Assembly (NCBI GenBank): GCA_977017645.1
Contig: OZ360232.1
Location: 37,758,001 to 37,822,000, forward strand
Direction of reading: 5' to 3'
DNA: 64,000 bases
Source: Torpedo marmorata
Taxonomy: Eukaryota
Position 1 is the stretch's first letter, and each line of letters opens with the position of its first letter. The position numbers and the translations under genes were made by a program. Shown here piece by piece: positions 24,576-64,000 of this stretch. A model generated the notes under the pieces. The model saw nothing but the letters and a program-made list of their open reading frames with translations, ran no database searches and was not told where the DNA came from.

Positions 24576-24810
24576 ACTATACAGTAAAAAATTAGATTCG
24601 CCGGAAAAAGCTGACATTCGTTAAGATTGTGGAATTAAGACGAGGAGAATAAACTTCACGCCTCTGTGCGTTTAATGTGTAGATGTTGCTGCAATAATGT
24701 TGTGAAGGGCAGTGCTTCGGTGTAATCGAGCAGAGGCCTGGCTTTGGTAAGGAATTCAGCACGGAACAAAAGCGAATTGCAACTATCTTGCTTTCAAAAC
24801 GTTTGCTTTC

Positions 24811-24900
24811 TTAGAACCATAGAATTACAGCACAGAAGACAGGCCCTTCGACCTTTCTAGTCTGGGCCGAGCTATTATTCTGCCTAGTTCCAGAACCTGC
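24811..24900 (-). mobile_element. 90-bp CR1 3' tail inserted in the signal-peptide region of pseudogene 3
   Basis: Reverse complement matches CR1 3' UTR at 21375-21467; flanks gtttgctttc|ctgatt rejoin to paralog tttgctttcctgatt. Confidence 0.8.
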
Positions 24901-29992: not shown

Positions 29993-30364
29993 TTCTCTAC
30001 AGTTTCATTACACAAATTTTACGTTGATTCAGCCACGTGTGATATTTCAATGGAGTAGTTAAAGCGTTTATATTCGACGCTATGTCGCTTTAATTTGAGC
30101 AGTAATGAGATAAATAATGAGCGAAGGCCTTCGAAATTGTGCTTTGCGTTCGATTTGAACAAAAGTTTTGTAATGCTGTAATCCAAAAACGAGGAGATTA
30201 TATGGGAGTTTAACGCCAAATGTCATAATTATAAAAATTTTCATATGTACACTGAGATAAATACAACTGCAGCTCGTTAATACCATTAGAGGCGCAGGGC
30301 AGCAGAGAGCAATTGCTGAAAACCGAACTATCTGCCGCGCGCATACAACCTCTGTTGCACAGTC

Positions 30365-30715: not shown

Positions 30716-31423
30716 GATCAGCGAAAAGAAGTAACCTTGTCAAAATTCTTGGGCATGAGTGGTGCTTGGTTCACTGGTTGATATTCTTGTGACTGAGACA
30801 TACGCATGCGTTATGAAATCGGAATGCAGTGAGCAGAAAAATGTGCGAAATATCAGATCCCCTTCTGTACAGTTTGTGAACTTCTGCACTGACTGAGATT
30901 TTGTCACGAAAGTGAAGTGTTAAATGATGCTGGTTCTTTTATCTGGGTCTAATGTACCGCACGGTAAAATGCGCTGGAATCGCAAAGATAAAATTTCCAG
31001 GCTAATAAACCAGAAATGACAACTAGCAACTCAGAAAGACCGCATTCAGGCCGTTGCAGGGTAGCCGTAAAATGTCAATGCAGTTAATATTCCAGAACTT
31101 AATTTGAAAGACGGCTGCAGCAAAACCAAGCGGATGATCGCAAAAATATACTTTGTTTATAACTTTAGATGACTATGGATCAGTGTTACTCAAGAGCGCC
31201 CTTTCCCTATCTTGATGAGCATGTGATACGCTGTGCGTTCTGTTTATCTCTTGCCTTGGTAATGCTTTTGTTGCCGGTAAAAGACACTGAGAGGGATCTC
31301 ATCTCAAGAAGTTCATCTGCCTGGTTGCTGATGATTCCCAATTTTCAAAAGGGAATTTGAATTTGACATGTTCAGTACCATGTTTTTAAATTGTGCTCTA
31401 CGAAATATTCACAAGGACAATCC

Positions 31424-31522
31424 AGCTTTAAGAAATGTGGATGTAGTTGTTGAAAAGAACTGGGTGTGTCGCTGTGCACCAATAAGAATCAAAAAGGCAG
31501 AGATGGATCCATTGCCCGCCCC
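31424..31522 (+). promoter_or_regulatory. Pcdh promoter 4 (CGCT 31470-31473, CCAAT 31479-31483)
   Basis: gctttaagaaatgtggatg...gtgtgtCGCTgtgcaCCAATaagaat...atggatccattgccc. Confidence 0.85.
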
Positions 31523-31721
31523 CTTCGACACAGAAATATCAGAACTGAAAGGAAACGGGAACAAAGCGCAGTTTGACCGTGGAGGCCAGTTAAAAAAGAT
31601 AAAAGTCATACATTTATCTGTTCAGAATGTAAAAATATTGCTGCAATATTCTCGTAGGAGGCCATTTCTCTGGGTTTAATCGAGCCGTGGGTAGTATCGG
31701 AAAAGGATTCACTGCAGAACA

Positions 31722-34112
31722 ATGGCGAATTCGGCGATAAGCAACGCCGCTGCTCTCCAAACCTTTGCTTTCCTGATTCTGGTATGTACAGAGCATTCGA
31801 TTGCCGGGCAAATTCGGTATTCTATTCCCGAGGAAATGGAAGAAGGGGCTTTTGTCGGGAATATCGCTCAAGATTTGGGATTGGAAATACCGCAATTGCA
31901 TGATCGTAATTTTTTTCTGACGTCTGATGACGGAGCAGAGTATATTAATATTGAATTGGAGAGTGGGATATTATCCATTGCGAAAAAAATCGACAGGGAG
32001 CAGGTCTGCGGACAGGAAACAGCATGTACTATCACTTTTAAAATAATACTGGAAAATCCTCTGGAGGTGTATCGCGGGGAAGTGGAGATTCTTGACCTGA
32101 ATGATAATTCCCCTACATTCAGGGAGGGCACGATTGATTTACAGATAGTCGAATCTATGGCACCAGGAGTAGGCTTCCCTCTCGAGGGTGCGGAAGATCA
32201 GGACGTTGGAATTAATGCAGTCGCTGCTTACACCATCAGTTCCAGTGACTATTTCAGATTAAAGACACAGACATCCGATGACGGCATGATTGCTGTCGAG
32301 CTGCTGATGGAGAAACATTTGGACCGAGAGCTGCGGTCATCCCTTCGGTTGGTTTTGACGGCGATCGATGGTGGGATCCCTCAGAGATCGGGCACAACTC
32401 AGGTTCTCATTACTGTAGTGGACATCAATGATAATCCTCCTGTATTCCACCATAAAATTTACAGAAGCAGCTTGAGAGAAAACGCGCCACTTGGTACCTT
32501 GGTGGTGACGGTCAAAGCTAATGACCTGGACGAAGGGCTGAATGCTGATCTAACATATTCCTTCAGCAAATTAACTTCACCAAAATTGCGCGAATTGTTC
32601 AGTTGTGACCCCTATAGCGGAGAAATTCGAACCAACGGAGAGCTGGACTTTGAAGAAAAAAACAGCTATTCACTCCACCTTCAAGCTGTGGACCACGGAT
32701 CACCTGCAATAACAGGACACAGCCAGGTTTTGGTCAAGATCATTGACGTTAATGATAACACACCCGAGATAAAAGTGACGTCCTCCACGTGCAAAATCAT
32801 GGAAACCGCTTCGCTTGGAACTTTAATAACATTGGTCAATGTTATCGACCGTGACTCTGGAGAAAACGGGCAGATACACTGCGAGGTGTCAGGAAAAATC
32901 CCATTTAAACTTCAAACATCATCAAGCAATCATTATGAGCTGACTACGAGTGAGGAATTGGACAGGGAATCTGTCCCCGAGTATGAAATAGTTCTGGTGG
33001 CCTGGGATTTGGGGTCGCCTTCACTAGCGACAAATAAAACCATCCAGATTATAATTACAGATGTAAATGATAACGCCCCTCTGTTTTCGGTACTCTCCTA
33101 CAACATATATGTGACGGAGAACAACGCTCCGGGAACTTCTATCTTCGCTGTAACTGCCACGGATCGTGATATAGATCAGAATTCCTATGTTTCATACTCC
33201 CTCTTGTCGAATACTATCCAAGACACGCGAGTATCCAATTACCTCAGCATTAACGCAATGAATGGAACCATTTACGCGCTGCGCTCTTTTGACTACGAAA
33301 AACTTAAAATCTTCCAGATCCATGTTCAAGCCCGAGACGCTGGAGTGCCCCCATTGAGCAGCAGCGCTGCAGTGAATGTGATCATCTTGGATCAAAATGA
33401 CAACGCGCCTGTAATAGTTACGCCTTCAGCGCAGAGTGGATCAGCATCTACAGAGAACCTGCCCCAGTCAGCGGATCAAGGCTACTTTGTCACCAAGATA
33501 ATAGCAACTGATGCAGATTCTGGTCAGAACGCGCGGCTGTTTTATCAGGTACACCGATCAACTGATCCCACCTTGTTCAACATTGGGCAAAACTCCGGTG
33601 AGATCAGAACTGCTCGCAGAATGTTCGAGTCCGACACCTCCATACAAACTCTCGTCATCTTGGTGACAGACAACGGGCAGCCACGACTCTCCAGCACGGT
33701 TACAATTCACGTTTCATTTCTGGAGAACATCACTGAAGGAATCACGGAAAGGAATAACTTGGTGTCGGATCGCAAATATGACTCTGATCTTCATCTTTAT
33801 TTAATCGTCGTTTTCGGTTGCACTTCTGTTCTGTTTCTCGTGACCATCATTCTGTTGATTGGAATCAAATGTAAACAAGAGGGAACTGTTACCCAAAACT
33901 ATAATTCTTCCAGTTGTTGCTGCAGGCTTGGAGGTTCCACCGATGCGCTGAGTCGGAGATATGGAACGGAGGAAACATTACGCTATCCAGGGACCGGCCG
34001 GATAGTTCGAGTGCCAGAAGCGCACAATTACTCAGTCTGTCTCTCCCCAGAATCAGCGAAAAGTGATTTTCTCTTCCTGAAGCCGTGCGGCAGGCCCTCC
34101 TCTCAGCCCTAA
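31722..34112 (+). CDS. clustered protocadherin, gene 4
   Basis: 796-aa intact ORF, same domain order; close paralog of gene 6. Confidence 0.94.
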   Translation: MANSAISNAAALQTFAFLILVCTEHSIAGQIRYSIPEEMEEGAFVGNIAQDLGLEIPQLHDRNFFLTSDDGAEYINIELESGILSIAKKIDREQVCGQETACTITFKIILENPLEVYRGEVEILDLNDNSPTFREGTIDLQIVESMAPGVGFPLEGAEDQDVGINAVAAYTISSSDYFRLKTQTSDDGMIAVELLMEKHLDRELRSSLRLVLTAIDGGIPQRSGTTQVLITVVDINDNPPVFHHKIYRSSLRENAPLGTLVVTVKANDLDEGLNADLTYSFSKLTSPKLRELFSCDPYSGEIRTNGELDFEEKNSYSLHLQAVDHGSPAITGHSQVLVKIIDVNDNTPEIKVTSSTCKIMETASLGTLITLVNVIDRDSGENGQIHCEVSGKIPFKLQTSSSNHYELTTSEELDRESVPEYEIVLVAWDLGSPSLATNKTIQIIITDVNDNAPLFSVLSYNIYVTENNAPGTSIFAVTATDRDIDQNSYVSYSLLSNTIQDTRVSNYLSINAMNGTIYALRSFDYEKLKIFQIHVQARDAGVPPLSSSAAVNVIILDQNDNAPVIVTPSAQSGSASTENLPQSADQGYFVTKIIATDADSGQNARLFYQVHRSTDPTLFNIGQNSGEIRTARRMFESDTSIQTLVILVTDNGQPRLSSTVTIHVSFLENITEGITERNNLVSDRKYDSDLHLYLIVVFGCTSVLFLVTIILLIGIKCKQEGTVTQNYNSSSCCCRLGGSTDALSRRYGTEETLRYPGTGRIVRVPEAHNYSVCLSPESAKSDFLFLKPCGRPSSQP

Positions 34113-37770: not shown

Positions 37771-38159
37771 TCAACACTTGTGAATTGAAAATGAGAATAT
37801 TTCAGCAAACTTCAATCACACAATGCATGAACATGAATGGCAACTTGACCTCTGAAGCCGCGATGCGTTATATTTTGGACCTATTGCTGCTTTTGGTGGA
37901 ATTCCTCTGAATGCCGTATGATGGTGCAACAGTTAATGCTGTTGTCCCACAGATTCAGGGACGTCGGTTCGAACCTGACTTTGGCGCAGCATTCGTGGAA
38001 ATTACACAGTGTCTCCTTGAACCTTCCCTGCACTTCATCTTGGTTCCCCTTCTATTCCACATGACTCCCAAAGATAGATGTTGGAAAATAAATTGATTGT
38101 TCGATTTATCTAAGACTGTTTTATCGGCATGCAACAAATTTAATATTTGCGAGGACAGT

Positions 38160-38296
38160 TTAGATTTATGAACTGTCGATCTCCTTGTTGAAGAGAACTA
38201 ATTGTGTCGCTATGTACCAACGAGAATCGGAAAAGCGGTGATGGATCCATTGGTCCTCTTCCTTTGCAGCAAAAATATCAGACACGACGATAAAGA
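38160..38296 (+). promoter_or_regulatory. orphan Pcdh-type promoter A (CGCT 38208-38211), no exon downstream
   Basis: ttgttgaagagaactaattgtgtCGCTatgtaccaacgagaat...atggatccattggtcctcttcc aligns to the true promoters. Confidence 0.7.
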
Positions 38297-38297
38297 T

Positions 38298-38558
38298 ATT
38301 TTTTTTAAAATTTCGACATGCAGCAGGGTAACAGCTCATTTCGGCCCACGAGTCCGTGCCGCCGATTTTACAAACAATTAACGTACACCCCCGGTACGTT
38401 TCTAACAGTGGGAGGAAACCGGAGCCCCGGGGAAAAACCCACGCAGACACGGGGAAAACGCACAAACTTCTTGCAGGCAGCGCGGGATTCGAACCCCGGT
38501 TCCGATCACTGACGCTGTGAAGGCGTTGCGCTAACCGCTACGCTAACCGTGCCGCCCC
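38298..38558 (-). mobile_element. V-SINE (duplicate at 48061-48320)
   Basis: B box and V-domain on minus strand; absent from the paralogous site ~62890. Confidence 0.85.
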
Positions 38559-39563
38559 ATTACGCGTTCAGATTGTGAAGTCAAGGTGAGAAGAATAGAA
38601 GTCGAGATTTCATGTTTTCAAGATGTCAATACTTTGTGGCATGTATTTTGTAATGACAACTTTTCATTTTTTAGCAATTAATGATTTGCTCTCACTAGCC
38701 CCGACGCGCTCACCGCAGTCATCATGGACTAAACGTACTACTTCCTTGACGTTAAAATATCCCGAAATGCCAAGGAAAACCATCCAATGCAGAGACAATA
38801 AGATGGGCAATCAAAGATATTGTTGCGCCAAGATACAAAACAATATTTAACTAAAATGTTAAAGACGAAAAGAATATATGATCTCAATGCAGCAAACAAT
38901 CTAAATGCAAAAACGCAGCTAATACCAGGTATGCTGAATCTGCAAATCTGTATGCTTTATAATTGAATAAAAGAGTATCATCGCAGTTCCAACACAATCG
39001 AAAATTAATCCAGCACGTTCAGAACCTCATAAATGTCCCTAAATCAATGTAATTCGGTCAAAACCTCGCTGTAAATTTATAAACCCCAGCTTCCTTCATA
39101 TTTCCTATACCTTCTGCACATGACCTCAGAAAGATAAACGCTTTCAGACAATTTCTATTTACTGATTTTTATCTAATTTGATTGATATTCATCCTGATCA
39201 TAATCCTGAAGTTGGCTTTTGTTTACTTGTGACAAAAGTCAATTTGTAGCCATTACAGCCATTTGGTCATTGAATAGAACGTGATGAAAGACGGTCAAAA
39301 CTTTAGACTGTTGTGCCCAATGTTACTCAAGAACGACCTTTCCCTCTATTGACACCCGCAAGTGATAGGCTGTGCACCCTGTCCATCTCTTCTATTAAAT
39401 AATGCTTTACTTGTGGGTAAAATGCACCGAGGTGGATCTCACCTCAAGACGTTCATCTGCCTGATTGCTGATGATTCCCGATTTTCAAAAGGAAATTCAT
39501 ATTTGAGTCGTTCAGGACGATGCTTTTAAATTATAGACTACAAAATATTCATAAGGACAGTCG

Positions 39564-39662
39564 AGCTTTAAGAAATGTTGATGTAGTTGTTGAAAAGAAC
39601 TGGGTGTGTCGCTGTGCACCAACAAGAATCAAAAAGGCAGAGATGGATCCAATGCCCGCCCC
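39564..39662 (+). promoter_or_regulatory. Pcdh promoter of pseudogene 5 (CGCT 39610-39613; CCAAT changed to CCAAC)
   Basis: Near-identical to promoter 6. Confidence 0.8.
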
Positions 39663-39861
39663 ATTCGCAACAAAAAGATCAGATTTGAGAAGAAACGGGA
39701 ATAATGCGCAGTTTGACCGTGGAGTCCAGTTGAAAAAGATAAAAGTCATACATTTATCCATTCAGAATGTAAGAATATTGCTGCAATATTCTCGAAGGAG
39801 GCCATTTCTCCGGATTTAATCATGCATTGGGTAGTTTCGGAATAGGATTCATTGCAGAACA

Positions 39862-42483
39862 ATGGCAAATACGGCGATAAGCAACGCCGCTGCTTTCAAA
39901 ACCTTTGCTGTCCTGATTCTGGTATGTACAAAGCATTCGACCATAAAATGTACAGAAGCAGCTTGAGAGAAAACGCGCCACTTGGTACCTTGGTGGTGAC
40001 GGTCAAAGCTAATGACTTGGACGAAGGTCTGAATGCTGATCTAAAATATTCCTTCAGAAAATTAACTTCACCAAAATTGCGTAAAATGTTCAGTTGTGAC
40101 CCCTACAGTGGAGAAATCCGAACCAATGGAGAGCTAGATTTGAAAAAAACAAACATCTATTCACTCCACCTTCAAGCTGTGGACCACGGATCACCTGCAA
40201 CAACAGGACACAGCAACGTTTTTGTCAAGATAATCGACGTTAATGATAACGCACCCGAGTTCAAAGTGACGTCGTCCAGGTGCAAAATTATTGAAACCGC
40301 TTCGCCCGGAACTTTAATAACATTGGTCACAGTTGTCGACCGTGAAACTGGAGAAAACGGGCAGATATACTGCGAGGTGTCAGGGGAAATCCCCTTTAAA
40401 CTTCCAACATCATCAAGCAATCATTATGAGCTGATTACGAGTTAAGAATTGGACAGGGAAACTGTCCCCGAGTATGACGTAGTTCTTGTGGCCTGGGATT
40501 TGGGGTCTCCTTCACAGTCGACAAATAAAGCTATCCAGATTGTAATTATAGATGTAAATGATAACGCCCCTGTGTTTTCGGAGCCCTCCTACAACATATA
40601 TGTGACGGAGAACAATGCTCCGGGAACTTCTATCTTTGCAGTAACTGCCACTGATCCTGATATGGATCAGTAAAAAACACAAAAGCTGGAGAACTCAGCA
40701 GGTCAAACAGTGTCTTTTATGTAGCAAAGGTAGAAATACATAACCGACGTTTCGGGCTTGAGCCCTTCATCAAAGTATGAGAAAATGCCGGCAGGCGTCC
40801 GAACAAAGGAGTGAGGGGGGAAGGGGGGTGGCAAAGGCAGGAGATGATAAGTGGAGAAAGGAGGGATGGGACGGCAGCAAAGAGGGGGAGGAGGGATGGC
40901 TGGGTGGGTGGAAAAAACAGGAAGGACAGGTGAGGGGGAGGGGAAGGGAACAACAAGCAGGTTTAGTGGAAAGCAGAAAAGTCAATGTTAATGCCATCTG
41001 GCTGGAGAGTGCCGAGACGGAATATGAGATGTTGTTCCTCCAATTTGTGGGTAGTCTGGGTGGGATAGTACATGAGGCCATGGACAGACATGTGAGTGTG
41101 GGAGTGTGACCCAGAATTGAAATGGTTGGCTACTGGGAGGTCGCTGTTGTTGCGGACGGACAGGAGGTGCTCAGCAAAGCGGTCTCCCAATCTACGACCG
41201 GTCTCTCCAATGTATAGAAAGCCACAAAGGGAGCACCGGATGCAGTAAATAAGTCCTCTAGATGTACAAGTGAAGTGTAGTTTCACTTGGAAGGCCTGTT
41301 TGGGGCCCTGGGACGTGGTGAGGGGGGAGGTGTGGGCGCAGGTGTTGCACCTCCGGGGGTGCGGTGGGAGGGGAGGGACGAGTGCACGAGTGAATCGCGG
41401 AGGGAGCGGTCCCTACGGAAGGCCGAGAGGGAAGGAGAAGGAAAAATGTGTCTGGTGGTGGGATCCTGCAGCAAGTGCCGGAAATTCCGGCGGATAATGT
41501 GTTGACGGTGTCTACAGATTTTCGTGTTTACTTCTGATATGGATCAGAATTCCTATGTTTCATTCTCCCTCTTTTTGTATCGTATCCAAGACACGCGAAT
41601 ATCCAGTTACCTCAGCATTATTAACGCAAAGAACAGCACCATTTACGCGCTGCGCTCTTTTGACTACGAAAAACTCAAACACTTCCAGATCCATGTCCAA
41701 GCCCGAGACGCTGGAGTGCCCCCATTGAGCAGCAGCGCTGCACTGAATGTGATCTTCTTGGATCAAAATGACAACGTGCCTGTAATGGTTTCCCCTTCAG
41801 CGCGGAGTGAATCAGCATCTGCACAGAACCTGCCCCAGTCAGTGGACCAAGGCTACTTTTTCACCAAGATAATAGCAACTGATGCAGATTTTGGTCAGAA
41901 CGCGCAGCTGTTTTATCAGGTTCACCGATCAACTGATCCCACCTTGTTCAAAATTGGGCAAAACTCCAGTGAGATCAGAACTGCGCGCAAAATGTTCGAG
42001 TCCGACACTTCCAAACAAAGTCTCGTCATCGTGGCGACAGACAACGGGCAGCCACGACTTTCCAGCACCGTTTCAATTCACATTTAATTTATGGAGAACA
42101 TCACTGAAAGAATCACGGAAGGGAATAACTTCTTGTCGAATCCCAAATATTACTCTGCTCTTCATCTTTATTTAATCGTCGTTTTCGGTTGCACTTCTGT
42201 TCTGTTTCTCGTGACCATCATTCTGTTGATTGGAATCAAATGTAAACAAGAGGGAACTGTTACCCAAAACTATAATCCTTCCAGTTGTTGCTGCAGGCTT
42301 AGAGGTTCCACCGATGCGCTGAATCGGAGCCATGGAACGGAGGAAACATGACGCTATCCTGGGACCGGCCGGATAGTACGAGTGCCAGAAGCGCACCATC
42401 ACTCAATCTTTCTCTCCCCAAAATCAGCGAAAAGTGAGTTTCTCTTAATGAAGCCGTGCGGCAGGCCCTCCTCTCAGCCCTAA
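39862..42483 (+). pseudogene. clustered protocadherin pseudogene 5 (young, chimeric)
   Basis: ATG at 39862; frameshifting deletion of EC1-EC2 at ~39940; stops at 40443-40445, 42085-42087, 42349-42351; Penelope insertion in EC5. Confidence 0.93.
40671..41533 (-). mobile_element. Penelope-like element 3' part with 14-bp TSD, inserted in pseudogene 5
   Basis: GIY-YIG ORF 40963-41286; TSD ctgatatggatcag at 40657-40670 and 41534-41547; hammerhead-like core 40746-40773. Confidence 0.92.
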
Positions 42484-46487: not shown

Positions 46488-47924
46488 GAATCCTAAATTT
46501 TCAAATTGTAGAGAACATCATTGGGGTAAAGTAAAACACAAAGCTGGAGAAACTTAGCAGGTCATGCAGTGTCCTTTATATAGAAAAGGCAAAAATTCCT
46601 AACCGACGACTCGGGCCTGAGCCCTTCATCAAAGTATGGGAACATTTGTAAATGATAAATCACATTGTACTTGTGTTAAGCAACAAAACTTCAACAAAAT
46701 TGATTCGTGAAACGGATCAAATTCAGTGACAGTCGTGCCCCAGGCAGCAAATTGAATTGTATTGTTACAAATATTATTTCAACTGAAGTGGGTTTTAGTG
46801 CACCCCATCAAAAGCTCAGCGCAACTGACCTCAATTCATAGAGCCATAGAATTCTACAGCATGGAAACAGGTCATTCAGTTCAACTTCCTTGCCGACCAC
46901 GCTTGTCCCATTTACTTGAGCTCCACTCATGTCTCCCCAACCTTTCGTATTCAGGTACATCGAAAACGACTTTTGAATGTAACAATTTTCTGCGCTGTAC
47001 CATTTTTGTTTGGCCTCTAGTTCCACGTTTCCACAACTCTCCATGTGAAGAAGGTACCTTCGGGCCCCTTTAAATTTTTTTCCCTCTCACCTTAAGTCTC
47101 TGCCCTCTCATTTAGGATTCACTTACTCTGCCAAAAAGGCTCTGATTATGTACTTAATCACTGCTAGCTTTATTTTATAAACCTCTATATAGACCACTTT
47201 GGCAGCGTTTACCCCAGAGAGAAAAGTTGCAGCCTTTCGGGCTTCTCCATATAATTCAAGCCTATCTGTCTAGGCAACATTCTCTGGAGTCTTTTCTGCA
47301 GCCTTTCCAGCTTAACAACATATTTTCTATTTCTGGGTGACCAGATTTGCACACAATACTCCAAGTGCGGTCTCACTAACGTCACGTGCAGTTCTAACAT
47401 GACGTCGTTGCTCCTGTATTTAATGCCCTGACAGACAAAGGCAAGGGCGTCAAGTCTTTTTCGCCACTGGAACGATGTACGTATACCCCCATGTCTCTTT
47501 GTTATACAACACTCTCCAGTGCAGAACATGGAATCAACTCTTGTGAAATGAAAAGGAGAATATTTCAGCAAACTTCAATCACACAATACATGGGCATGAA
47601 TGGCAACTTGACCTCTGAAGCCGCGATGCGTTATATTTTGGATCTATTGCTGCTTTTGGTGGAATTCCTCTGAATGCCGCATAATGGCGCAACGGTTTGT
47701 GCTGCTGTCCCACAGATCCAGGGACGTCGGTTCGAACCTGACTTTAGCGCAGCATTTGTGGAAATTACACAGTGTCTCCTTGAACCTTCCCTGCACTTCA
47801 TCTTGGTTCCCCTTCTATTCCACATGACTCCCAAAGATAGATGTTGGAAAATAAATTGATTATTCGATTTATCTAAGACTGTTTAATCGCCATGCAACAA
47901 ATTTAATATTTGCGAGGACAGTTT

Positions 47925-48060
47925 AGATTTATGAACTGTCGATCTCCTTGTTGAAGATAACTAATTGTGTCGCTATGTACCATCGGAAATAGCTAAAGTG
48001 GCGATGGATCTATTGGTCCTCTTCCTTCGCAGCAATAATATCAGAAACGACGATAAAGAC
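47925..48060 (+). promoter_or_regulatory. orphan Pcdh-type promoter B (CGCT 47971-47974)
   Basis: ctaattgtgtCGCTatgtaccatc...atggatctattggtcctcttcc; duplicate of orphan A. Confidence 0.6.
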
Positions 48061-48320
48061 ATTTTTTTAAAATTTCGACATGCAGCATTACGACAGCTCA
48101 TTACGGCCCACGAGTCCCTTCCGCCCAATTTACACCAAATTAACCTACACCCCCGGTACGTTTCGTGCAGTGGGAGGAAACCGAAGCCCCCGGGAAAAAC
48201 CCACGCAGACACGGGGAAAACGTACAAACTCCTTACAGGCAGCGCGGTATTCGAAACCCGGTTCCGATCGCTGGCGCTGTGAAGGCGTTGCACTAACCGC
48301 TACGCTAACCGTGCCGCCCC
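48061..48320 (-). mobile_element. V-SINE, duplicate of 38298-38558
   Basis: Same sequence and same flanks. Confidence 0.85.
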
Positions 48321-48360
48321 ATTACGCGTTCAGATTGTGAAGTCAAGGTGAGAAGAATAA

Positions 48361-51300
48361 TGAGGACCAAACTAATAAAGAGCTCGAAGAAGTTGGATGA
48401 AGATATGATCATAAATGTTGTGTAAAATCTGTTGGGTGGGGGTGGACTTTTTGTTCTCTCCTACCTAGCCACACATCACCTTAGTGGCGAGGGCCACTTC
48501 CCGAGCAATGGAGGGTGGCAATACTGGGGTAATTATGCCATTAATGAATATAGTGGGGTTTTTAGTTTTTCTTTTATTTTTTATGTTTTTTCTTTTTTTT
48601 TCTAAGGAGATGTCAAGCAGATTACAAATGGGGAAGAGTGTGCTGGTGGATCTGATGTAAAGAGAGTTATTAAAAACTAGAAATGGCGGATAGTAAATCA
48701 ATAAATGTAGTAAGTATTAATATGAATGGGCTAAACAATCCGATTAAAAGGAAGAAAACTTTAGCATATATCAAAAAGTTAAATGTAGACTTAGCTTTTT
48801 TACAAGAGACACATTTGACAGATATAGAAGATCAGAATTTGAAAAGAGAATGGGTTGGTCAAGTGGTTGCATCTTCATTTAATTCTAAACAAAAGGAGTT
48901 GCTGTATTAGTTAATAAAAATTACCTTTTAAAATACAATCTGTGGTTGTAGATGTGGCAGGTAGATATGTTTTAATACATTGTCAGATATATTTAGAAAT
49001 GTGGACACTCATGAATATATATCTACCAAATATGGAAGATGAACAATTTATTCGATTCTTTTATGCATTTGTCAGAATGAAATGATAATATTTTAATTGG
49101 TGGGGATTTTAATTGTTGTTTATATTCAATAATGGATAAAACATCGAAATCAATTATTAGAACTAAAATTGCTAAAATAATTCTTATTTTGATGAAAGAT
49201 TTAAATTTAATAGATATATCGAGAAAGTTGAATCCAAGAGAAAAAAATATTCTTTCTGTTCTTTTCGGCATGACTCGTACTCTAGAATAGATAAGTTTTT
49301 ATTGTCCTCACAAGTAGAAGATAGGGTGACTCAAGTACAATACAAAGCAAGTATAATTTCTGATCACTTGCCTCTATTAATGTCATGTATAATTACAGAA
49401 AAAGAAAAAAACTATATATTGGTGGAGATTTAATTCTTCTTTATTAAAAAGAACGGAATTTTGTAACTATATAAGAAGAGAAATTCAAGAATTTTTACAG
49501 ATTAATTCTAACTCGATTGATAATAAATTTATTATTTGGGAAGCTTTAAAGGCTTATTTAAGAGGCCAAGTAATAAGTTATTCAGCAAAAGTTAAGAAGA
49601 AATATGTTCTGGAAGTGGATAATTTGGAGAGGGAGATTTAATTTTTGGAGAAGGATTTGCAAAAAATGAGATCAGAAGAAAAGAGGAAAAATTTAATTGA
49701 AACAAAATTGCATTATAATACGTTACAAACATATAAATTGGAAAAATTAATTAAAACAACTAGTTAGAGATGTTATGAATTGGGAGAAAGAGCGCATAAA
49801 GTGTTGGCGTTGCAATTAAAGAAAGAACAAACTTCTAGAACTATAAATGCCATAAAAAGAATTCAAAGAAAATAACATATAAACGTCGAGAAATAAATGA
49901 TTCCTTTAAGGAATTTTATTTAAATTTATATAAATCTCAAACTGATAAAGATGATTCTAAAATTAATGAATTTCTATCTAAAATTAAGATACCTAGATTA
50001 AATACTCAAAGTAAATAACTTTTAGATTTGCCGTTTTTGATGAGGGAAGTTAATGATGTTCTTCGTTCTTTAACGAGTGGAAAATCTCCAGCGGAGGATG
50101 GTTTCCCATCAGAATTTTATAAGGAGTTTCAGGATTTATTGATGCCTCCATATATGGAGGTGTTAAAACAAATAACGGAAACTCATTCGCAACCGGAAAC
50201 ATTTTCAAATGCAATAATTACAGTTATAACTAAAAAAGATATAGATGTGTTGAAAACAGAATCATATACACAAATTTCATTGTTACATGTGGATAATAAG
50301 ATAATGGCAAAAATTTTAGCAAATAGAGTGGCTAAATATTTACCAGACTTAATCCATGTAGATCAGGCTGGTTTTATTAAGAATAGATATTCAAAAGATA
50401 ATATAGCTAGATTAATTAGTTTAATAAATGTGGCTCAAAAAAGAGGAATTAGCATTAGTATTAACATTAAATGCCGAAATGGCTTTCGACAGATTAGAGT
50501 GGAATTATTTATTTAAAGTATTGGGGAAATTTGGTTTTGGAACTACATTTATTAATTGGATTAAAACTATATATAAAGAAACATCTGCTAGAATGGTGAC
50601 AAATGGAAAAAGTTCTTCAAAATTTTCTTTGACTAGGTCAACAAGACAAGGATGTCCTTTGTCGCCAGCATTGTTTATTTTAGCAATGGAACCTTTGGCA
50701 GAATTAATTAGACAAGATATTAAAATTTCAGGTATTAATGTTGGAAGAGAAGAGCATAAAATTAGTTTATTTGCAGATGATGTATTGATCTATATGACAA
50801 AACCTATTACTTCTTTAATACAATTGACGGTTTTATTGAGAGAATATGGGGAAATATCTGGTTCTAAGATTAATTCTGATAAAAGTGAAATTATGGCATT
50901 GACACAAGGGGATTATAATAAATGTAAAAAATTACACAATTTAAATGGTCAAAAGAAGGAATGAAATATTTTGGAATAAAGATTGATACAAAATTAGCCA
51001 ATTTATATAAATTAAATTATTTACCATTATTTATGAATATTAAAAAAGATCCAGAAAGTTGGAAAGATTTACCTATAACTTTAATAGGAACGGTAAATTG
51101 TATTAAAATGAATGTTTTTCCAAGAATTGAATATCTTTTTCAATCAATTCCTTATGAAATTCCTCAAAAATTCTTTAAAGATTTAAATTTAATTATTAGG
51201 AAGTTTTTGTGGAAAGGAAAGTTGGCTAGAGTAGGTTTGGAGAAATTAACTTGGAATTATGAAATGGGTGGGATATGCGAGATAAAAAAAAGCACATTGG

Positions 51301-54071
51301 GTAAATATGGAGAATATAGTGATTACGAAAGATGTAGTGTTAGGGCTTTTGAGGCATATAAAGGTGGATAAGTCTCCAGGACCCGACGGGATCTTCCCAG
51401 GGACCTTGAGAAAAATAAGGGAGGAAATAGCAGAGGCTCTGACCGTGATTTTCCAAATGTCATTAGTGAAGGGGATAGTGCCGGAGGATTGGCGTATTGC
51501 GCATGTGGTTCCGTTATTTAAAAAGGGTTCAAGGAGGAAGCCTGGCAATTATCGGCCTGTAAGTTTGACGTCTGTGGTAGGTAAATTAATGGAGAAAGTT
51601 CTTAGAGATAGTACTTATAAATATCTGGATAGACAGGGTCTGATCAGGAACACTCAACACGGATTTGTGAGCGGAAGGTCCTGTTTGACCAATCTGATTG
51701 AATTTTTTGAAGAGGTGACTAGGAATGTGGATGAGGGTAGCGCGGTGGATGTTGTCTATATGGACTTCAGTAAGGCCTTCGATAAGGTACCACATGGAAG
51801 GTTAGTTAGGAAGGTGCAGTCTTTAGGTATAAATTTTGAGATAGTCAAATGGATTGAACATTGGCTGAAAGGGAGAGGCCAGAGAGTGGTAGTGGATAAT
51901 TGTCTGTCAGGCTGGAGGCCGGTGACCAGCGGTGTGCCTCAGGGATCTGTATTGGGCCCATTGTTGTTCGTTATATACATTAATGATCTAGATGATGGGG
52001 TGGTGAACTGGATTAGTAAATATGCAGACGATACTAAGATAGGTGGAATAGTGGATAATGAAGAAGGTTTTCAAGGATTGCAGAGGGATTTGGGCTGCTT
52101 AGAAAAGTGGGTTGAAAAGTGGCAAATGGAGTTTAATGCTGATAAGTGTGAGGTGCTTCATTTTGGTAAGAAGAATCAGAACAAGACATACGTAGTAAAT
52201 GGGAGAGCATTGATGAATACAGAAGAGCAGAAAGAATTAGGAGTAATGGTGCATCGTTCCCTGAAGGTAGAAACTCATGTGAATAGGGTGGTGAAGAAGG
52301 CTTTTAGTATGCTGTCCTTTATCAATCATTGCATAGAATATAGGAGTTGGGAAGTGATATTGAGATTATATAAGGCGTTGGTGCGGCCTAATTTAGAGTT
52401 CTGTGTGCAGTTCTGTTCGCCAAATTATAGGAAGGATATCAAAAGAGTGGAGAGAGTGCAGAGAAGATTTGCCAGAATGTTACCTGGGTTTAAGCATCTA
52501 GAGTACAAGGAGAGATTGAGCAGATTAGGTCTTTATTCTTTGGAGCGTAGAAGGTTGAGAGGGGATTTGATAGAGGTATTTAAGATTATGAAAGGGATAG
52601 ACAGAGTGGATGTGGATAGAGTATTTCCGTTAAGCATAGGAGAGATTGAAACAAGAGGACATGAGTTAAGAGTTAAGGGGCAGAGGTTTAGAGGTAACAT
52701 GAGGGGGAACTTCCTTACTTAGAGAGTGGTAGCGATGTGGAATGAGCTTCCGGGAGAAGTAGTGGCGGCAGAGTCAATTTTATTATTTAAGAAAAAGTTG
52801 GACAGGTATATGGATGAGAAGGAGGTGGAGGGTTATGGGCAGGGTGCAGGTAGGTGGGACAAGAGAGGAGTGTTTGGTTCGGTGCGGACTAGAAGGGCCT
52901 AATGGCCTGTTTCCGTGCTGTAATTGTTATATGGTTATATGTTATTATAAAGCAGCTCAATTAAAATTTATTAATGAAATGTTTGATTTAGGAAAATCTT
53001 CTGCTTGGATTAGAAAAGAATTAAATAATATAGGATAAGATTTGAAAGAAGAAGTTATTTATAAATGGAATTCTAAATTATTATTAACAAGAGGGAAAAT
53101 TCTCCTATTTTTAAACATTTGTTAGAAATATGGAATAGAGTGGATAGGGAGATAGGAGGGAAAGGGTTAAGTTCTCGAAAAATGCCTTTATATCAAAATA
53201 AACTTATTCCATTTACTGTTGATAATCAATTATTTAAAATTTGGTTCCAAATGGAAATTAAGAAGATAAATGATTGTTTTGAAGCTAGTAAATTTATTAC
53301 TTTTCAAAGAATGAAAGAAAAGTTTAATATATTAAATAATACACTTTTTGCTTATTATTCAAATTAGAGCATTTTTAGTTAAACGTTTGGGCTATAGTTT
53401 GACTTTACCAAGACAAAGTGAACTGGAATTATTAGTTCCTAATGGAAGTATAAATAAATTTATTTCTCAAATATATAGATTGTTACAGAGAAAAATGCCT
53501 AAATTAGGAGTTCATAAATCAAGATTAAAATGGGAATCAGATCTCAATGTAACAATAGGTGAAGAACATTGGAAAGAACTATGTAAACAAAGTATGACGA
53601 AGATTATTAACGTTAGATATAGGTTGGTGCAATAAAAAAATTTCATCAATTATATCTAACACCTATGAAATTAAAGAAATTTAATCCGACATTATCAGGT
53701 TTATGTTTCAAATGTAATAGAGAGGAAGGTTCTTTTGTACATTCTACATGGTTCTTTCCAAAGATATATGATTTTTGGTTGAAAGTTAAAAAATTTTTAG
53801 ACAAAGTATTAGTATTACACTTCCAATGGACCCTATGATATTTTTGTTTGGAGATATTAAAATAATTAGTATTAAGATGAAATTAAATATGTATCAAATA
53901 GAATTTTTGCGAATTGCTTTAGCTGTTTCTAAGAAATGCATTGCTATTACTTGGAAATCTGATGTAGATTTAGCGTTAGAAAGATGGCATGCAGAACTTC
54001 GTTCAGCTATACCACTTGAAAAAATACTTATAAATTACGTAATAAATATAATTTCTTTTTGAAAATATGGA
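48361..54071 (+). mobile_element. L1-clade LINE ORF2 (APE, RT, C-terminus), frameshifted, lacking 3' UTR, with nested CR1
   Basis: SINMNGLNNPIKRKK...FLQETHL; RQGCPLSPALF; SLFADDVLIY; AT-rich. Confidence 0.9.
51273..52942 (+). mobile_element. young CR1 LINE nested in the L1
   Basis: Open 471-aa RT ORF 51307-52722 (YMDFSKAFDKVPH, KYADDTK); (GTTATATG)n tail; L1 frame resumes YYKAAQLKF. Confidence 0.92.
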
Positions 54072-54402
54072 CATAAGTAAATTTTTAGCCATTACAACTA
54101 TTTGGTCATTGAATGAAACGTGATGAATGACGGTCAAAACTTTAGAATGTTGTGCCCAATGTTACTCAAGAACGACCTTTCCCTCTATCGACACCCGCAA
54201 GTGATAGGCTGTGCACCCTGTCCATCACTTCTATTAATAATGCTTTACTTGTGGGTAAAATGCACCGAGGTGGATCTCACCTCAAGACGTTCATCTGCCT
54301 GATTGCGGATGTTTCCGGATTTTCAAAATGAAATTCATATTTGAGATGTTCAGGACGATGTTTTTAAATTATAGACTACGAAATATTCATAAGGACAGTC
54401 TA

Positions 54403-54500
54403 GCTTTAAGAAATGTTGATGTAGTTGTTGAAAAGAACTGGGTGTGTCGCTGTGCACCAATGAGAATGAAAAAGGCAGAGATGGATCCATTGCCCGCCCC
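54403..54500 (+). promoter_or_regulatory. Pcdh promoter 6 (CGCT 54448-54451, CCAAT 54457-54461)
   Basis: Same conserved blocks as the other promoters. Confidence 0.85.
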
Positions 54501-54699
54501 CTTCGCAACAAAAAGATCAGATTTGAGAAGAAACGGGAATAATGCGCAGTTTGACCGTGGAGGCCAGTTGAAAAAGATAAAAGTCATACATGTATCCATT
54601 CAGAATATATGAATATTGCTGAAATATTCTCGTAGGAGGCCATTTCTTCGGATTTAATCGAGCCGTGGGTAGTTTCGGAATAGGATTCATTGCAGAATA

Positions 54700-57090
54700 A
54701 TGGCGACTACGGCGATAAGCAACGCCGCTGCTTTCAAAACCTTTGCTGTCCTGATTCTGGTATGTACAGAGCATTCAATTGCCGGGCAAATTCGGTATTC
54801 TATTCCCGAGGAAATGGAAGAAGGGGCTTTTGTCGGGAATATTGCTCACGATTTGGGATTGGAAATACCGCAATTGTATGATCGTAATTTTGTGTTGACG
54901 TCTGATGACGGTGCAGAGTATATTAAGATTGAATTGGAAAGTGGATTCTTATCCATTGCGAAACTAATCGACAGGGAGCAGGTCTGCGGACAGGCAACAG
55001 CATGTATTATTCCTTTTAAAATATTACTGGAGAATCCTCTGGCGGTGTATCGCGGGGAAGTGGAGATTCTTGACGTGAATGATAATTCCCCTACTTTCAG
55101 GGAGGGCACAATTGATTTACAGATAGCCGAATCTATGGCACCAGGAGTAGGCTTCCCTATCGAGGGTGCGGAAGATCAGGACGTTGGAATAAACGCAGTC
55201 GCTGCTTACACCATCAGTTCCAGTGACTACTTTAGATTAAAGACACAGACATCCGATGACGGCATGATAGCTCTCGAGCTGCTGGTGGAGAAACCTTTGG
55301 ACCGAGAGTTGCAGTCATCCCTTAGGTTTGTTTTGACGGCGATCGATGGTGGGATCCCTCAGAGATCGGGCACTACTCAGGTTCTTATTACCGTAGTGGA
55401 CATCAATGATAATCCTCCTGTATTCGACCATAAAATTTACAGAAGCAGCTTGAGAGAAAACGCGCCACTTGGTACCTTGGTGGTGACGGTCAAAGCTAAT
55501 GACCTGGACGAAGGGCTGAATGCTGATCTGACATATTCCTTCAGCAAATTAACTTCACCAAAATTGCGTGAAATGTTCAGTTGTGACCCCTACAGTGGAG
55601 AAATCCGAACCAATGGAGAGCTAGACTTTGAAAAAACAAACAGCTATTCACTCCACCTTCAAGCTGTGGACCACGGATCACCTGCAACAACAGGACACAG
55701 CAACGTTTTGGTCAAGATAATCGACGTTAATGATAACGCACCCGAGATCAAAGTGACGTCGTCCAGGTGCAATATTATTGAAACCGCTTCGCCCGGAACT
55801 TTCATAACATTGGTCAATATTATCGACCGTGACTCTGGAGAAAACGGGCAGATATACTGCGAGGTGTCAGGAAAAATCCCCTTTAAACTTCAAACATCAT
55901 CAAACAGTCATTATGAGCTGATTACGAGTGAAGAATTGGACAGGGAATCTGTCCCCGAGTATGACGTAGTTCTGGTGGCCTGGGATCTGGGGTCTCCTTC
56001 ACTGTCGACAAATAAAACTATCCAGATTGTAATTACAGATGTAAATGATAACGCCCCTCTGTTTTCGGAGCCCTCCTACAACATATATGTGACGGAGAAC
56101 AATGCTCCGGGAACTTCTATCTTTGCAGTAACAGCCACGGATCCTGATATGGATCAGAATTCCTATGTTTCATACTCCCTCTTATCGAATCGTATCCAAG
56201 ACAAGCGAATATCCAGTTACCTCAGCATTAACGCAAAGAACGGCAACATTTACGCGCTGCGCTCTTTTGACTACGAAACACTCAAAAACTTCCAGATCCA
56301 TGTCCAAGCCCGAGACGCTGGAGTGCCCCCATTGAGCAGCAGCGCTGCAGTGAATGTGATCATCTTGGATCAAAATGACAACGCGCCTGTAATTGTTTCC
56401 CCTTCAGCGCGGAGTGGATCAGCATCTGCAGAGAACCTGCCCCAGTCAGCGGATCAAGGCTACTTTGTCACCAAGATAATAGCAACTGATGCAGATTCTG
56501 GTCAGAACGCGCGGCTGTTTTATCAGGTACACCGATCAACTGATCCCACCTTGTTCAACATTGGGCAAAACTCCGGTGAGATCAGAACTGCGCGCAGAAT
56601 TTTCGAGTCCGACACTTCAATACAAACTCTCGTCATCTTGGTGACAGACAACGGGCAGCCACGACTCTCCAGCACCGTTTCAATTCACATTTCATTTCTG
56701 GAGAACATCACTGAAAGAATCACGGAAAGGAATAACTTGGTGTCGAATCCCAAATATGACTCTGATCTTCATCTTTATTTAATCGTTGTTTTCGGTTGCA
56801 CTTCTGTTCTGTTTCTCGTGACCATCATTCTGTTGATTGGAATCAAATGTAAACAAGAGGGAACTGTTACCCAAGACCATAATTCTTCCAGTTGTTGCTG
56901 CAGGCTTGGAGGTTCCAACGATGCGCTGAATCGGAGATATGGAACGGAGGAAACATTACGCTATCCTGGGACCGGCCGGATAGTTCGAGTGCCAGAAGCG
57001 CACAATTACTCAGTCTGTCTCTCCCCAGAATCAGCGAAAAGTGATTTTCTCTTCCTGAAGCCGTGCGGCAGGCCCACCTCTCAGCCCTAA
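54700..57090 (+). CDS. clustered protocadherin, gene 6
   Basis: 796-aa intact ORF; signal peptide, EC1-EC6, TM, tail. Confidence 0.94.
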   Translation: MATTAISNAAAFKTFAVLILVCTEHSIAGQIRYSIPEEMEEGAFVGNIAHDLGLEIPQLYDRNFVLTSDDGAEYIKIELESGFLSIAKLIDREQVCGQATACIIPFKILLENPLAVYRGEVEILDVNDNSPTFREGTIDLQIAESMAPGVGFPIEGAEDQDVGINAVAAYTISSSDYFRLKTQTSDDGMIALELLVEKPLDRELQSSLRFVLTAIDGGIPQRSGTTQVLITVVDINDNPPVFDHKIYRSSLRENAPLGTLVVTVKANDLDEGLNADLTYSFSKLTSPKLREMFSCDPYSGEIRTNGELDFEKTNSYSLHLQAVDHGSPATTGHSNVLVKIIDVNDNAPEIKVTSSRCNIIETASPGTFITLVNIIDRDSGENGQIYCEVSGKIPFKLQTSSNSHYELITSEELDRESVPEYDVVLVAWDLGSPSLSTNKTIQIVITDVNDNAPLFSEPSYNIYVTENNAPGTSIFAVTATDPDMDQNSYVSYSLLSNRIQDKRISSYLSINAKNGNIYALRSFDYETLKNFQIHVQARDAGVPPLSSSAAVNVIILDQNDNAPVIVSPSARSGSASAENLPQSADQGYFVTKIIATDADSGQNARLFYQVHRSTDPTLFNIGQNSGEIRTARRIFESDTSIQTLVILVTDNGQPRLSSTVSIHISFLENITERITERNNLVSNPKYDSDLHLYLIVVFGCTSVLFLVTIILLIGIKCKQEGTVTQDHNSSSCCCRLGGSNDALNRRYGTEETLRYPGTGRIVRVPEAHNYSVCLSPESAKSDFLFLKPCGRPTSQP

Positions 57091-61400: not shown

Positions 61401-62329
61401 ACGATGCGTTATATTTTCAACCTATTGCTACGTTTGGTGGAATTCCTCTGAATGCCGCATGATGGCGCAACGGTTAATGCTGTTGTCCCACAGATCCAGG
61501 GACGACGGTTCGAACCTGACTTTGGCGCAGCACTTGTGGAAATGACACAAAGTCTCCTTGAAACCTTCCTGCAAGTCGTCTGTGTTCCTCTTATATTCCA
61601 GAAATATGAGCTGGTAACTCAAATTGTTATTGTTAAGAACACATTTGTATCAGTTAATGTAAAATAAGTCAAAGGTGAGATGCTGCGCATGTATGTGAAC
61701 GAATCATCTGCAGGGGTACAGGGGAATTAGGCGAGGGGATGTGATTGATGACATTTATCTATGAGAGTCCTCATGGTTCCGATGGTCTACTGCACTGTTT
61801 CAGGTATAAGAAAAGATTGGATCTGCAAAGATTGAAACTTCCTGAGATGTAGCATTATAAGATAGAAGCGAGTATAATTAGAATAGTTTGCTGTTACTAA
61901 TCATCTGGTTTCACATCTTTTCTCTTATTTCGAAATTTCCAAGTTGGACAACTGTAAATATAGCTATATTAGTTGCATTCTAATACATATATGGCTTTCT
62001 TTTGCCATCAGAATGGAGCGTGATGAAACATTATCGCACTTATTGGCCACAGTGTTCGATTGTTTTCCAAATTAAATGAAGTAAATGTGAAAAGTTTGGA
62101 AATTAAAGATGTCAAAAATCCCAATCAGCATTATTTCTGCTGTTTGAAATGACGATGTACAGGAATTTGGGTTATGAGTAACACATGAGAATAGTCTTTT
62201 TCTGTTATCAACCAGTGATCTGATACGTTGGGCAGACTGTTTCTCTTTCACTCTCAATACGATTATCCGACGTTGAGATAGCTGCCGTCCGAAGTCGTTC
62301 GCCTGCCTTATTCCCTTCAATTTAATGAA

Positions 62330-62950
62330 TTATTTTGGACCCATATTGCACCGTGGGTACGTTGGTTGGGAACATAATTTCCTTAATATAGATTGTCCTC
62401 TCATCTGACATTCATGACTTCGGAAGATAGATGTTGGCGAAGTGGTTATCGTAACGCCTTTACAGCGCCAACGATCGGGACCGGACCTGGGTTCGAATCC
62501 CGCGCTGTCTGTAAGGAGTTTGTACGTTTGTGCGTGGGTTTTCTCCGGGGACTCCGGTTTCCTCCCACCTTTCAAAATGTACTGGGGGTGTAGGTCAATG
62601 GGGTGTAAATTAGGCGGCACGAACTCGTAGGGCCGAAATGGCCTGTTATAGTGCTGTATGTCTAATGTTTTTAAAATTAAAATAAATCGAATCATCGATT
62701 TATGTAAGACTCTGTTATCGCCACACAACGTTAATATTTGCGAGGAAAGTTTAGATTTATGAACTGTCGATCTCCTTGGTGAAGAGAAATAGTTGTGTCG
62801 CTATGTACCAACGAGAATTGCAAATGCGGCGATGGGTTCAGTGGTCCTCTTCCTTCGTAGCAAACATATTAGAAACGACGATAAAGACAATAATTAGGCG
62901 TTCAGATTGTGAAGTCAAGGTGAGGAGAATAACATCGAGCTTTCATGTTT
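62330..62950 (+). promoter_or_regulatory. orphan Pcdh-type promoter C (CGCT 62799-62802) with its upstream block retained
   Basis: ttttggacccatattgcac...attgtcctc matches 1172-1240 and 24295-24365; agttgtgtCGCTatgtaccaacgagaat. Confidence 0.7.
62436..62675 (+). mobile_element. V-SINE specific to the gene 6 flank
   Basis: GGTTCGAATCC B box, V-domain, tail gggccgaaatggcctgtt...gtgctgtatgtcta; empty site atgttgg|aaaataaat at ~38080. Confidence 0.85.
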
Positions 62951-63334
62951 TTAAGATGTCAATACTTTGTGGCATATATTTTGCAAATACCAGTTTTCAG
63001 TTTTAGAGATGAAGGATTTGCTCACATCAGCCCCGACGCGCTATCCGCAGCCATCATGGACCAAACGGACTACATCCGTGACGGTAAAATATTCTGAAAT
63101 GCCAAGGAAAACCATCCAAAGCAGAGACGTTAAGATAAGCAATCAAAGCTATTGTTTCGCCAGGATAGAAAACAATATTGAATTAAAATGTTAAAAACGA
63201 AAACAATATATGATCTTAATGCAGCAAACAATCTAAATGCAAAAACGCAGCTAATACCAGGTATGCTGAATCTGCATATCCGTGTGCTTTATAACTGAAT
63301 AAAACATTATCATCGCAGTTCTAACACAATCGTG

Positions 63335-64000
63335 ATGCTCTTTTTAAAAAAATATATTTTATTTAGAATTTTAAATCACAAAATACATAAAATAAAATAT
63401 GAAATTATCAAAATATTTGTGATGCATTTTCACCCCCCCCACCCTCCCCTCCCCAACCCTCCCAACCCCACTAATCTAATAAAAAAATATAAAATAAAAA
63501 TAGAGAAAGAAAAAAAAAAGGAAAAAATAGAATAAGGAGGTTGCCGATCTAAAAAACATATATCTATAAACTAATTCTATTGTGGAGGTCAGGTATGCCA
63601 GTAGATCCGATACTCAGAGATCTTCAAATCCTTAAACCAACAACTTTCATATATGGGCTCCAAATTTTAAGAAAAAATGATATTTGTTACGTAAATTATA
63701 AGTAATTTTTTCAAGTTGTATACACGAACGAAGTTCTGCATGCCATCTTTCTAATCCTAAATCTAAATCAGATTTCCAAGTAATAGTAATACATTTCTTT
63801 GAAACAGCTAAAACAATTCGCGAAAATTCTATTTGATACATGTTTAATTTCATCTTAATATTAAATTTTCTAATATCTCCGAACAAAAATATCATAGGAT
63901 CCATTGGAAATGTAATCTTAAATACTTTATCTAAAATATTTTAAACTTTCAACCAAAAATCATAAACTCTTGGACAAAACCATGTAGAATGTACAAAAGA
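63335..64000 (-). mobile_element. L1-clade 3' end, runs off window
   Basis: Minus ORF MDPMIFLFGDI...ERWHAELRSC; reverse complement of the 26096-26761 family. Confidence 0.88.

What the first reader, a model, noticed from the sequence alone, without database searches (positions are those of the whole stretch)
38160..38620. Orphan Pcdh promoters: CGCT-box elements with no exon, one per repeat unit
Seen: besides the six gene-linked promoters there are three more copies of the promoter (CGCT at 38208, 47971, 62799). They keep the flanking blocks (ttgaagagaa..., atggatcc..., and in copy C the far-upstream ccatattgcac block) but no cadherin coding sequence follows; copy A sits 1.4 kb upstream of the next real CGCT (39610). 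The run gtgtCGCTatgtacca is identical in all three, while CCAAT has become CCAAC/CCATC. Known: in mammals CSE/CTCF sites govern stochastic promoter choice and alpha exons carry paired CTCF sites. Inference: these are either relics of a cleanly deleted exon or retained decoy/auxiliary elements that tune promoter choice. This is the best candidate here for an undescribed regulatory layer.
Basis: partly seen in the sequence, partly recalled or inferred. Interest (0 to 1): 0.7.

Follow-up and report, generated by a model that had tools for sequence, protein, structure and literature searches.

The report
Leftover promoters at protocadherin duplication joints
Three protocadherin promoter copies with no gene behind them are real, but they sit at the joints of a four-unit tandem repeat and change as fast as the DNA around them, so they are likely leftover duplication scars rather than a new control over gene choice.

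Summary
The three exonless CGCT boxes (38208, 47971, 62799) are real: of 30 promoter-profile hits in 464 kb, only these lack an exon. They are the joints of a four-unit tandem array [gene, 3' flank, next promoter]. The fourth unit, beyond the window, ends in their sister promoter D, which still carries a decayed exon. Each orphan keeps up to about 200 bp of 5' leader, cut 48 bp before D's ATG, then joins DNA that lies upstream of paralogous promoters. Orphans and D share lesions; CCAAT is intact in 26 of 26 intact-gene promoters and 0 of 3 orphans. The orphan core varies at 17 of 74 sites against 502 of 3560 in the flank; intact neighbours vary at 4 of 74. The identical 16-mer is unremarkable (7.4% of flank 16-mers). 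The joint also exists in another species, where the core is somewhat better kept (8 of 135, p=0.03, biased). Verdict: likely neutral duplication relics; passive CTCF binding is untested. The scan's earlier notes cover these promoters but not exonless copies.

The parts
38060..38296 (+). Orphan promoter A (CGCT 38208-38211; CCAAC; CTTTAAG box lost), paralog of promoter D, which lies beyond the window at G000:C44:37843807 with its decayed exon
38297..38558 (-).
   Evidence: family label and strand are inferred from copy number, size and sequence
38559..38665 (+). Rest of the 5' leader of A; homology to D ends at 38665 (the joint)
38666..39300 (+). DNA after the joint: far-upstream region of the next gene, collinear with upstream DNA of intact paralogs at 1392, -8755 and -27549
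39490..42480 (+). Broken unit-2 gene (CGCT 39610, CCAAC; about 0.66 kb internal deletion, insertion at 40670-41504, stops)
47823..48359 (+). Orphan promoter B (CGCT 47971; CCATC) with the shared SINE-like insertion 48062-48321 and a short leader remnant
48361..54069 (.). Retroelement insertions behind B (RVT_1 fragments); about 630 bp including the joint itself is lost in this unit
62127..62998 (+). Orphan promoter C (CGCT 62799; CCAAC) with far-upstream block at 62341, private SINE-like insertion 62433-62686 and 199 bp of leader; joint at 62998
62999..64000 (+). DNA after the joint in unit 3 (to 63332), then a LINE-like fragment from 63340; the intact unit-4 gene (CGCT at extended 65302) and promoter D (extended 85807, TGCT, CCAAC, ATG 86027) follow beyond the window
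31161..34112 (+). Intact unit-1 gene (CGCT 31470, 805-aa open frame); no orphan before it
54070..57090 (+). Intact unit-3 gene (CGCT 54448, 805-aa open frame, cadherin domains)

Best explanation
The three exonless boxes are decaying copies of one protocadherin promoter that lie at the three joints of a four-unit tandem array, likely left there when a duplication cut the neighbouring gene 48 bp before its start codon, and likely without a selected function. Shown: the array, the joint, the kinship with D, the decay. Inferred history: the ancestral order was gene Y then gene X (D today). X's promoter had likely already lost CCAAT and the CTTTAAG box. A segment from about 0.9 kb upstream of Y to the 5' leader of X was duplicated in tandem, so X's promoter and leader came to sit before the second Y without X's exon. 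Unequal crossing-over would then have multiplied the inner segment (flank, orphan, Y) to give four Y genes and three orphans, and each copy gathered its own insertions, deletions and substitutions.
For: Four collinear units, three orphans, and the last unit keeps the exon. Promoter tree (D,(C,(A,B))) with 100/100 for the four and 100/98 for the three. Mirror pattern expected from one old duplication plus later inner expansion: the unit-4 flank is the outlier (0.203-0.205 against 0.049-0.120) and the unit-1 upstream region is the outlier (0.217-0.226 against 0.045-0.089). DNA after the joint aligns to upstream DNA of 3 of 12 paralogous promoters clearly above shuffles (scores 119, 79, 57 against maxima 43, 55, 42; a fourth is marginal, 48 against 46). 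Lesions shared by A, B, C and D: +4 G to A, CCAAT to CCAAC, CTTTAAG to (C/T)TTATG. D's exon has 39 of 304 otherwise invariant coding sites changed (intact genes 0.3-4.3%), so it has decayed for about as long as one branch of the unit-4 split. Core variation 17 of 74, and 6 of 32 at positions fixed in nine intact neighbours, against 14.1% in the flank. Positive control: unit-1 against unit-3 working promoters differ at 2 of 74 core sites while their upstream DNA differs at 55 of 243. A and B lost 1.08 kb directly upstream; A and B took an insertion in the leader. In organism A one copy has two changes inside the 16-mer; in organism D the downstream block appears deleted.
Against: The left breakpoint cannot be seen: homology upstream of the unit-1 gene stops at 31161 in repeats, so duplication followed by a separate deletion gives the same map. 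All three orphans keep CGCT with its CpG while D and one other pseudogene lost it. The organism B copy differs from C at only 8 of 135 core-region bases against 294 of 2652 in flank pieces (p=0.034 one-sided), and at none in the 16-mer. The tests on 16-74 bases have low power against mild constraint. No binding or expression data were available.
Confidence: 0.8

Rival explanations
1. Same relic status, different origin: a longer segment including the whole X gene was duplicated and the X exon was later deleted once from the inner copy, before the inner segment multiplied.
For: Gives the same final map; the neighbouring unit-2 gene shows that internal deletions happen here; the left breakpoint is not visible.
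Against: Needs two events; no remnant of X exon or of D's 3' flank follows the joint (blastx blank; alignment score 48, within the shuffle range seen for other targets).
Confidence: 0.25
2. Born as relics, the boxes still bind CTCF and act as extra forward-oriented insulators or decoys that shift promoter choice, and the box itself is under mild selection in some lineages.
For: CGCT kept in 3 of 3 orphans and in the organism A and B copies laid; organism B copy is better kept than its flank (8 of 135, p=0.034); in mammalian cells single CTCF sites in the array insulate upstream genes (PMC7087399, section 10).
Against: Rough tally over three species: 2 changes in the 16-mer against about 4 expected (P=0.23) and 0 in CGCT against about 1 expected (P=0.36), so nothing significant; the organism B piece was clipped by local alignment at a divergent patch, and the whole 646-base piece differs at 65 sites, the flank rate; profile scores fell to 14-23 bits against 24-39 for intact genes; the mammalian CSE needs adjacent sequence to bind CTCF (PMC3333863 passages).
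Confidence: 0.12
3. The orphans are alternative upstream promoters for the next Y gene.
For: Same strand, 1.4-2.5 kb upstream in A and C; leader retained.
Against: CCAAT lost in 3 of 3; 34 and 48 ATG triplets lie between the orphan and the Y start in A and C; the gene behind A is itself broken; B is cut off by 5.7 kb of retroelements.
Confidence: 0.03

Closest known systems
Conserved sequence element (CSE, CGCT box) of clustered protocadherin promoters (PMC7811963, PMC4978886; passages read)
   Same: Same box, same strand, and in the sister copy D about 220 bp before the ATG; descended from such a promoter.
   Different: No exon follows; CCAAT and CTTTAAG boxes are broken; sequence is not constrained like the working promoters; CTCF binding not tested in this species.
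Pseudogenes and relics left by birth-and-death turnover in variable-exon clusters (Pcdh duplication, loss and degeneration, PMC4978886; 'relics' in Ugt clusters, PMC2819257; passages read)
   Same: Fragment of a dead cluster member made and multiplied by tandem duplication; 5 of 31 gene-linked hits in the scanned region front broken exons.
   Different: The fragment is promoter plus leader only, with no coding remnant, so exon-based annotation would miss it; it was amplified as the joint of a repeat unit.
Stand-alone CTCF insulators in the mammalian Pcdh array (PMC7087399; abstract and section 10 read)
   Same: A forward-oriented CSE-like site between promoters could insulate passively.
   Different: Those sites are shown by ChIP and deletion; here there is no binding evidence and no significant constraint.

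Membership tests
Working Pcdh promoter CSE | CGCT box in the family context, forward orientation | tested here: met
   Profile hits at 38.5, 16.7, 27.0 bits on + strand
Working Pcdh promoter CSE | About 200 bp upstream of a variable-exon start codon | tested here: not met
   Next exon 1570, 6645, 2670 bp away; blastx blank
Working Pcdh promoter CSE | Positions fixed in working promoters of this cluster (CCAAT, +4, CTTTAAG) | tested here: not met
   CCAAT 26 of 26 intact, 2 of 5 broken, 0 of 3 orphans; CTTTAAG 19 of 26, 1 of 5, 0 of 3
Working Pcdh promoter CSE | Slower substitution than flanking DNA | tested here: not met
   17 of 74 against 502 of 3560; working controls 4 of 74 against 44 of 168
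Working Pcdh promoter CSE / CTCF insulator | CTCF and cohesin binding, open chromatin, transcription start | not testable with these tools
   No ChIP, ATAC or CAGE data available
Tandem-duplication joint relic | n units give n-1 joints, and the last unit keeps the full parent | tested here: met
   4 units, 3 orphans, D with exon
Tandem-duplication joint relic | DNA after the joint matches the start of the unit | tested here: inconclusive
   Matches upstream DNA of paralogous promoters, but the unit-1 copy of that DNA is lost beyond 31161
Tandem-duplication joint relic | Neutral decay after the event | tested here: met
   one weak contrary signal in organism B

The most novel reading that the evidence does not exclude
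An exonless promoter made by a duplication joint has persisted in several related species as a stand-alone CTCF site: it lost the boxes that drive transcription but kept the CGCT core, and works as an insulator or decoy that biases stochastic choice among the freshly duplicated protocadherin genes.
Probability: 0.12. Interest if true: 0.6.

Novelty: new member of a known kind. Interest (0 to 1): 0.18.

Why it matters
As a relic it matters modestly: it records how this cluster grows (one old duplication, later unequal crossing-over), and warns that counting CGCT boxes overcounts genes. It also gives natural loss-of-function alleles that point to CCAAT and CTTTAAG as the parts that die first. 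If the boxes still bound CTCF they would be a natural version of the inserted-insulator experiments in mammals and a way for duplication scars to alter neuronal identity codes, but the sequence evidence does not call for that.

Tried and rejected
Decayed exon behind the orphans: none by blastx. CpG-retention argument: ancestral CpGs are kept in all three units at 69 of 96 flank sites, so keeping the CGCT CpG is not surprising. Assembly artefact: rejected, the units differ by 5-12% and carry private insertions, and organism A has two distinct copies. More orphans in the cluster: a second profile over 1,064 kb gave 35 hits, with one further exonless hit at 878839 (14.9 bits, no CGCT, no homology to other promoters; judged chance); the profile is blind to most of the distal sub-cluster, so that part is not tested. 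Expression: no RNA holder listed; run X3 (RNA is a guess) did not cover the orphan, which is no evidence either way. Microhomology at the joint: not testable, the left parent is lost. The elephant shark cluster paper (PMC2268768) is not held, so the sub-cluster name was not assigned. Earlier notes near this place: none.

Full report
Coordinates are window coordinates; values below 1 or above 64000 continue the same counting along the contig (contig place minus 37,758,000; the window is G000:C44:37758001-37822000). A, B, C are the orphans; D is their sister promoter at 85807; Y genes are the repeated genes with boxes at 31470, 39610, 54448 and 65302.

Setting. The window lies in a clustered protocadherin locus: four open frames of 805-831 codons on the + strand, with cadherin domains by Pfam for the one scanned, and 48 EC1 matches in the genome, 45 of them on this contig. 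That the animal is a cartilaginous fish comes from earlier scan notes on the same genome, not from a test of mine. The CSE with its CGCT box lies about 200 bp before the start codon and binds CTCF in mammals (PMC7811963 and PMC4978886, passages read).

Observation. A profile of 19 intact-gene promoters gave 30 hits above 12 bits in 464 kb, none on the minus strand; 27 lie 144-469 bp before cadherin sequence and A, B, C do not. A shorter profile over 1,064 kb gave 35 hits: 26 before intact exons, 5 before broken exons, the 3 orphans and one borderline hit that I judge chance. That profile misses most promoters of the distal sub-cluster, so the count covers the CGCT-type part only. No cadherin remnant follows the orphans.

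Anatomy. A search of the genome with orphan A returned 7 matches; after A, B and C the best is D (77%), ahead of the Y promoters. Self-alignment shows four collinear units, each a Y gene, its 3' flank and a promoter of the A/B/C/D type. In unit 4 that promoter is followed by an exon with frameshifts, stops and insertions (85991-90848). The orphans keep the promoter and the 5' leader; homology to D ends at 38665 in A and 62998 in C, matching D 85978, 48 bases before D's ATG at 86027. B lost the joint itself under retroelement insertions. After the joint the DNA is collinear with upstream DNA of intact paralogs: 3 of 12 promoters tested scored clearly above 30 shuffles, one marginally, eight not. 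Unit 1's own copy of that DNA is lost beyond 31161, so the left breakpoint is not seen.

History. A tree of 15 promoter regions (insertions left out of the working copies) groups D with the orphans at 100/100 and the orphans together at 100/98. The flank of unit 4 differs from the other three by 0.203-0.205, which differ among themselves by 0.049-0.120; upstream of the Y genes it is unit 1 that stands apart, by 0.217-0.226 against 0.045-0.089. This mirror pattern is what one old duplication followed by expansion of the inner segment predicts (inference). A, B, C and D share three changes: +4 G to A, CCAAT to CCAAC (B further to CCATC) and loss of CTTTAAG. CCAAT is intact in 26 of 26 intact-gene promoters and +4 is G in 23 of 26 (one A, in a distant CGCC-type promoter). 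D's exon differs at 39 of 304 sites that are fixed in 12 intact genes (95% interval 0.09-0.17; intact genes left out in turn 0.003-0.043), about half the unit-4 split. So the parent was likely dying when the first orphan was made. That the shared changes were harmless variants of a working X gene is possible but less likely.

Selection test. Among A, B, C, 502 of 3560 flank columns vary (14.1%), against 10 of 49 in the inner core, 17 of 74 out to the ATGGATCC block and 36 of 206 in the wider promoter; none is lower. At 32 positions fixed in nine intact neighbours, 6 vary among the orphans; against the leave-one-out rate of intact genes (19 of 309), C deviates significantly (7 of 32, p=0.006), B marginally (5, p=0.06) and A not (3, p=0.34). 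Repeat-derived neighbours diverge by 0.10-0.11. The control works: three intact Y promoters vary at 4 of 74 core columns against 44 of 168 upstream, although gene conversion may add to that contrast. The 16-mer identity has a 7.4% chance at a pre-chosen place.

Other species. Seven runs from four organisms share words with 54070-63340; I laid four, then three of these plus a second run of organism D (5 of 7 in all). One 2339-base contig of organism B carries flank, orphan, joint and then a Y promoter, at about 10% divergence: the joint is old and shared. In organism A, one contig resembling C has no change in the 16-mer and another, resembling A/B, has two (62796, away from the consensus; 62803, back to it). 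In organism D one low-depth contig differs at 9 of 77 bases and its loose end, with missing cover at 62836-62841, suggests a deletion of about 30 bases through the downstream block (my reading of 30 letters; whether this contig spans the joint was not shown). Against my reading: the organism B copy differs from C at only 8 of 135 bases, none in the 16-mer, against 294 of 2652 in three flank pieces (p=0.034). The piece was clipped where divergence starts, and the full 646-base piece differs at 65 sites. A rough tally with guessed branch lengths gives 2 changes in the 16-mer where about 4 are expected (P=0.23). Mild constraint on the box is therefore not excluded.

Mechanism. Most likely there is none to explain beyond origin: a promoter that had likely lost its activator boxes was carried along at a duplication joint and is drifting. 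The live alternative is passive. In mammalian cells each CTCF site of the array insulates upstream genes (PMC7087399, abstract and section 10 read), so a box that still binds could have an effect without being selected. Mutating the CSE or its adjacent element abolishes binding in vitro (PMC3333863, passages), which makes binding by these mutated copies uncertain.

Literature. Tandem duplication, loss and degeneration are well described for Pcdh clusters (PMC4151104, PMC4978886, passages), and relics are drawn in Ugt variable-exon clusters (PMC2819257, passages). Five searches (listings only) turned up no description of exonless Pcdh promoters; one search found no paper holding two or more of five terms (protocadherin and four phrases for such promoters). 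The library lacks most subscription papers and the elephant shark cluster paper; no supplements were read. The scan's earlier notes hold none with the word 'exonless'.

Verdict. Observation confirmed; a new instance of an ordinary product of gene-cluster turnover; interest 0.18; chance of a retained insulator role about 0.12.

Noticed in passing
window 39490-42480: Young pseudogene: about 0.66 kb lost from the signal peptide to EC2, between short similar sequences, plus an insertion; only 7 of 262 invariant sites changed, yet its CCAAT is already CCAAC.
   Followed up: partly
window 24380-27760: Older pseudogene (38 of 308 invariant sites changed) whose promoter keeps CGCT and CCAAT and deviates at only 1 of 32 fixed positions, better kept than its exon would suggest.
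   Followed up: partly
G000:C44 about 38.55-38.67 Mb (extended 798000-907000): Distal sub-cluster promoters have ATTGG...CCAAT pairs and mostly no CGCT; the CGCT profile misses them. Earlier scan notes describe the same.
   Followed up: no
extended 69439-77030 (L008-L009): LTR-type element with 691-base ends 90.9% alike inside the unit-4 flank.
   Followed up: no
extended -100282, -88630, -83065: Three upstream intact genes carry CGCC in place of CGCT, with CCAAT intact.
   Followed up: no
extended about 212000-218800 (L022-L023): Several kilobases of simple tetranucleotide-like repeat inside the cluster, open in all three frames.
   Followed up: no
window 28864-29995 and 45350-46471: A 1.13-kb repeat 92-95% identical to several copies elsewhere in the cluster, so likely a recently active family.
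   Followed up: no
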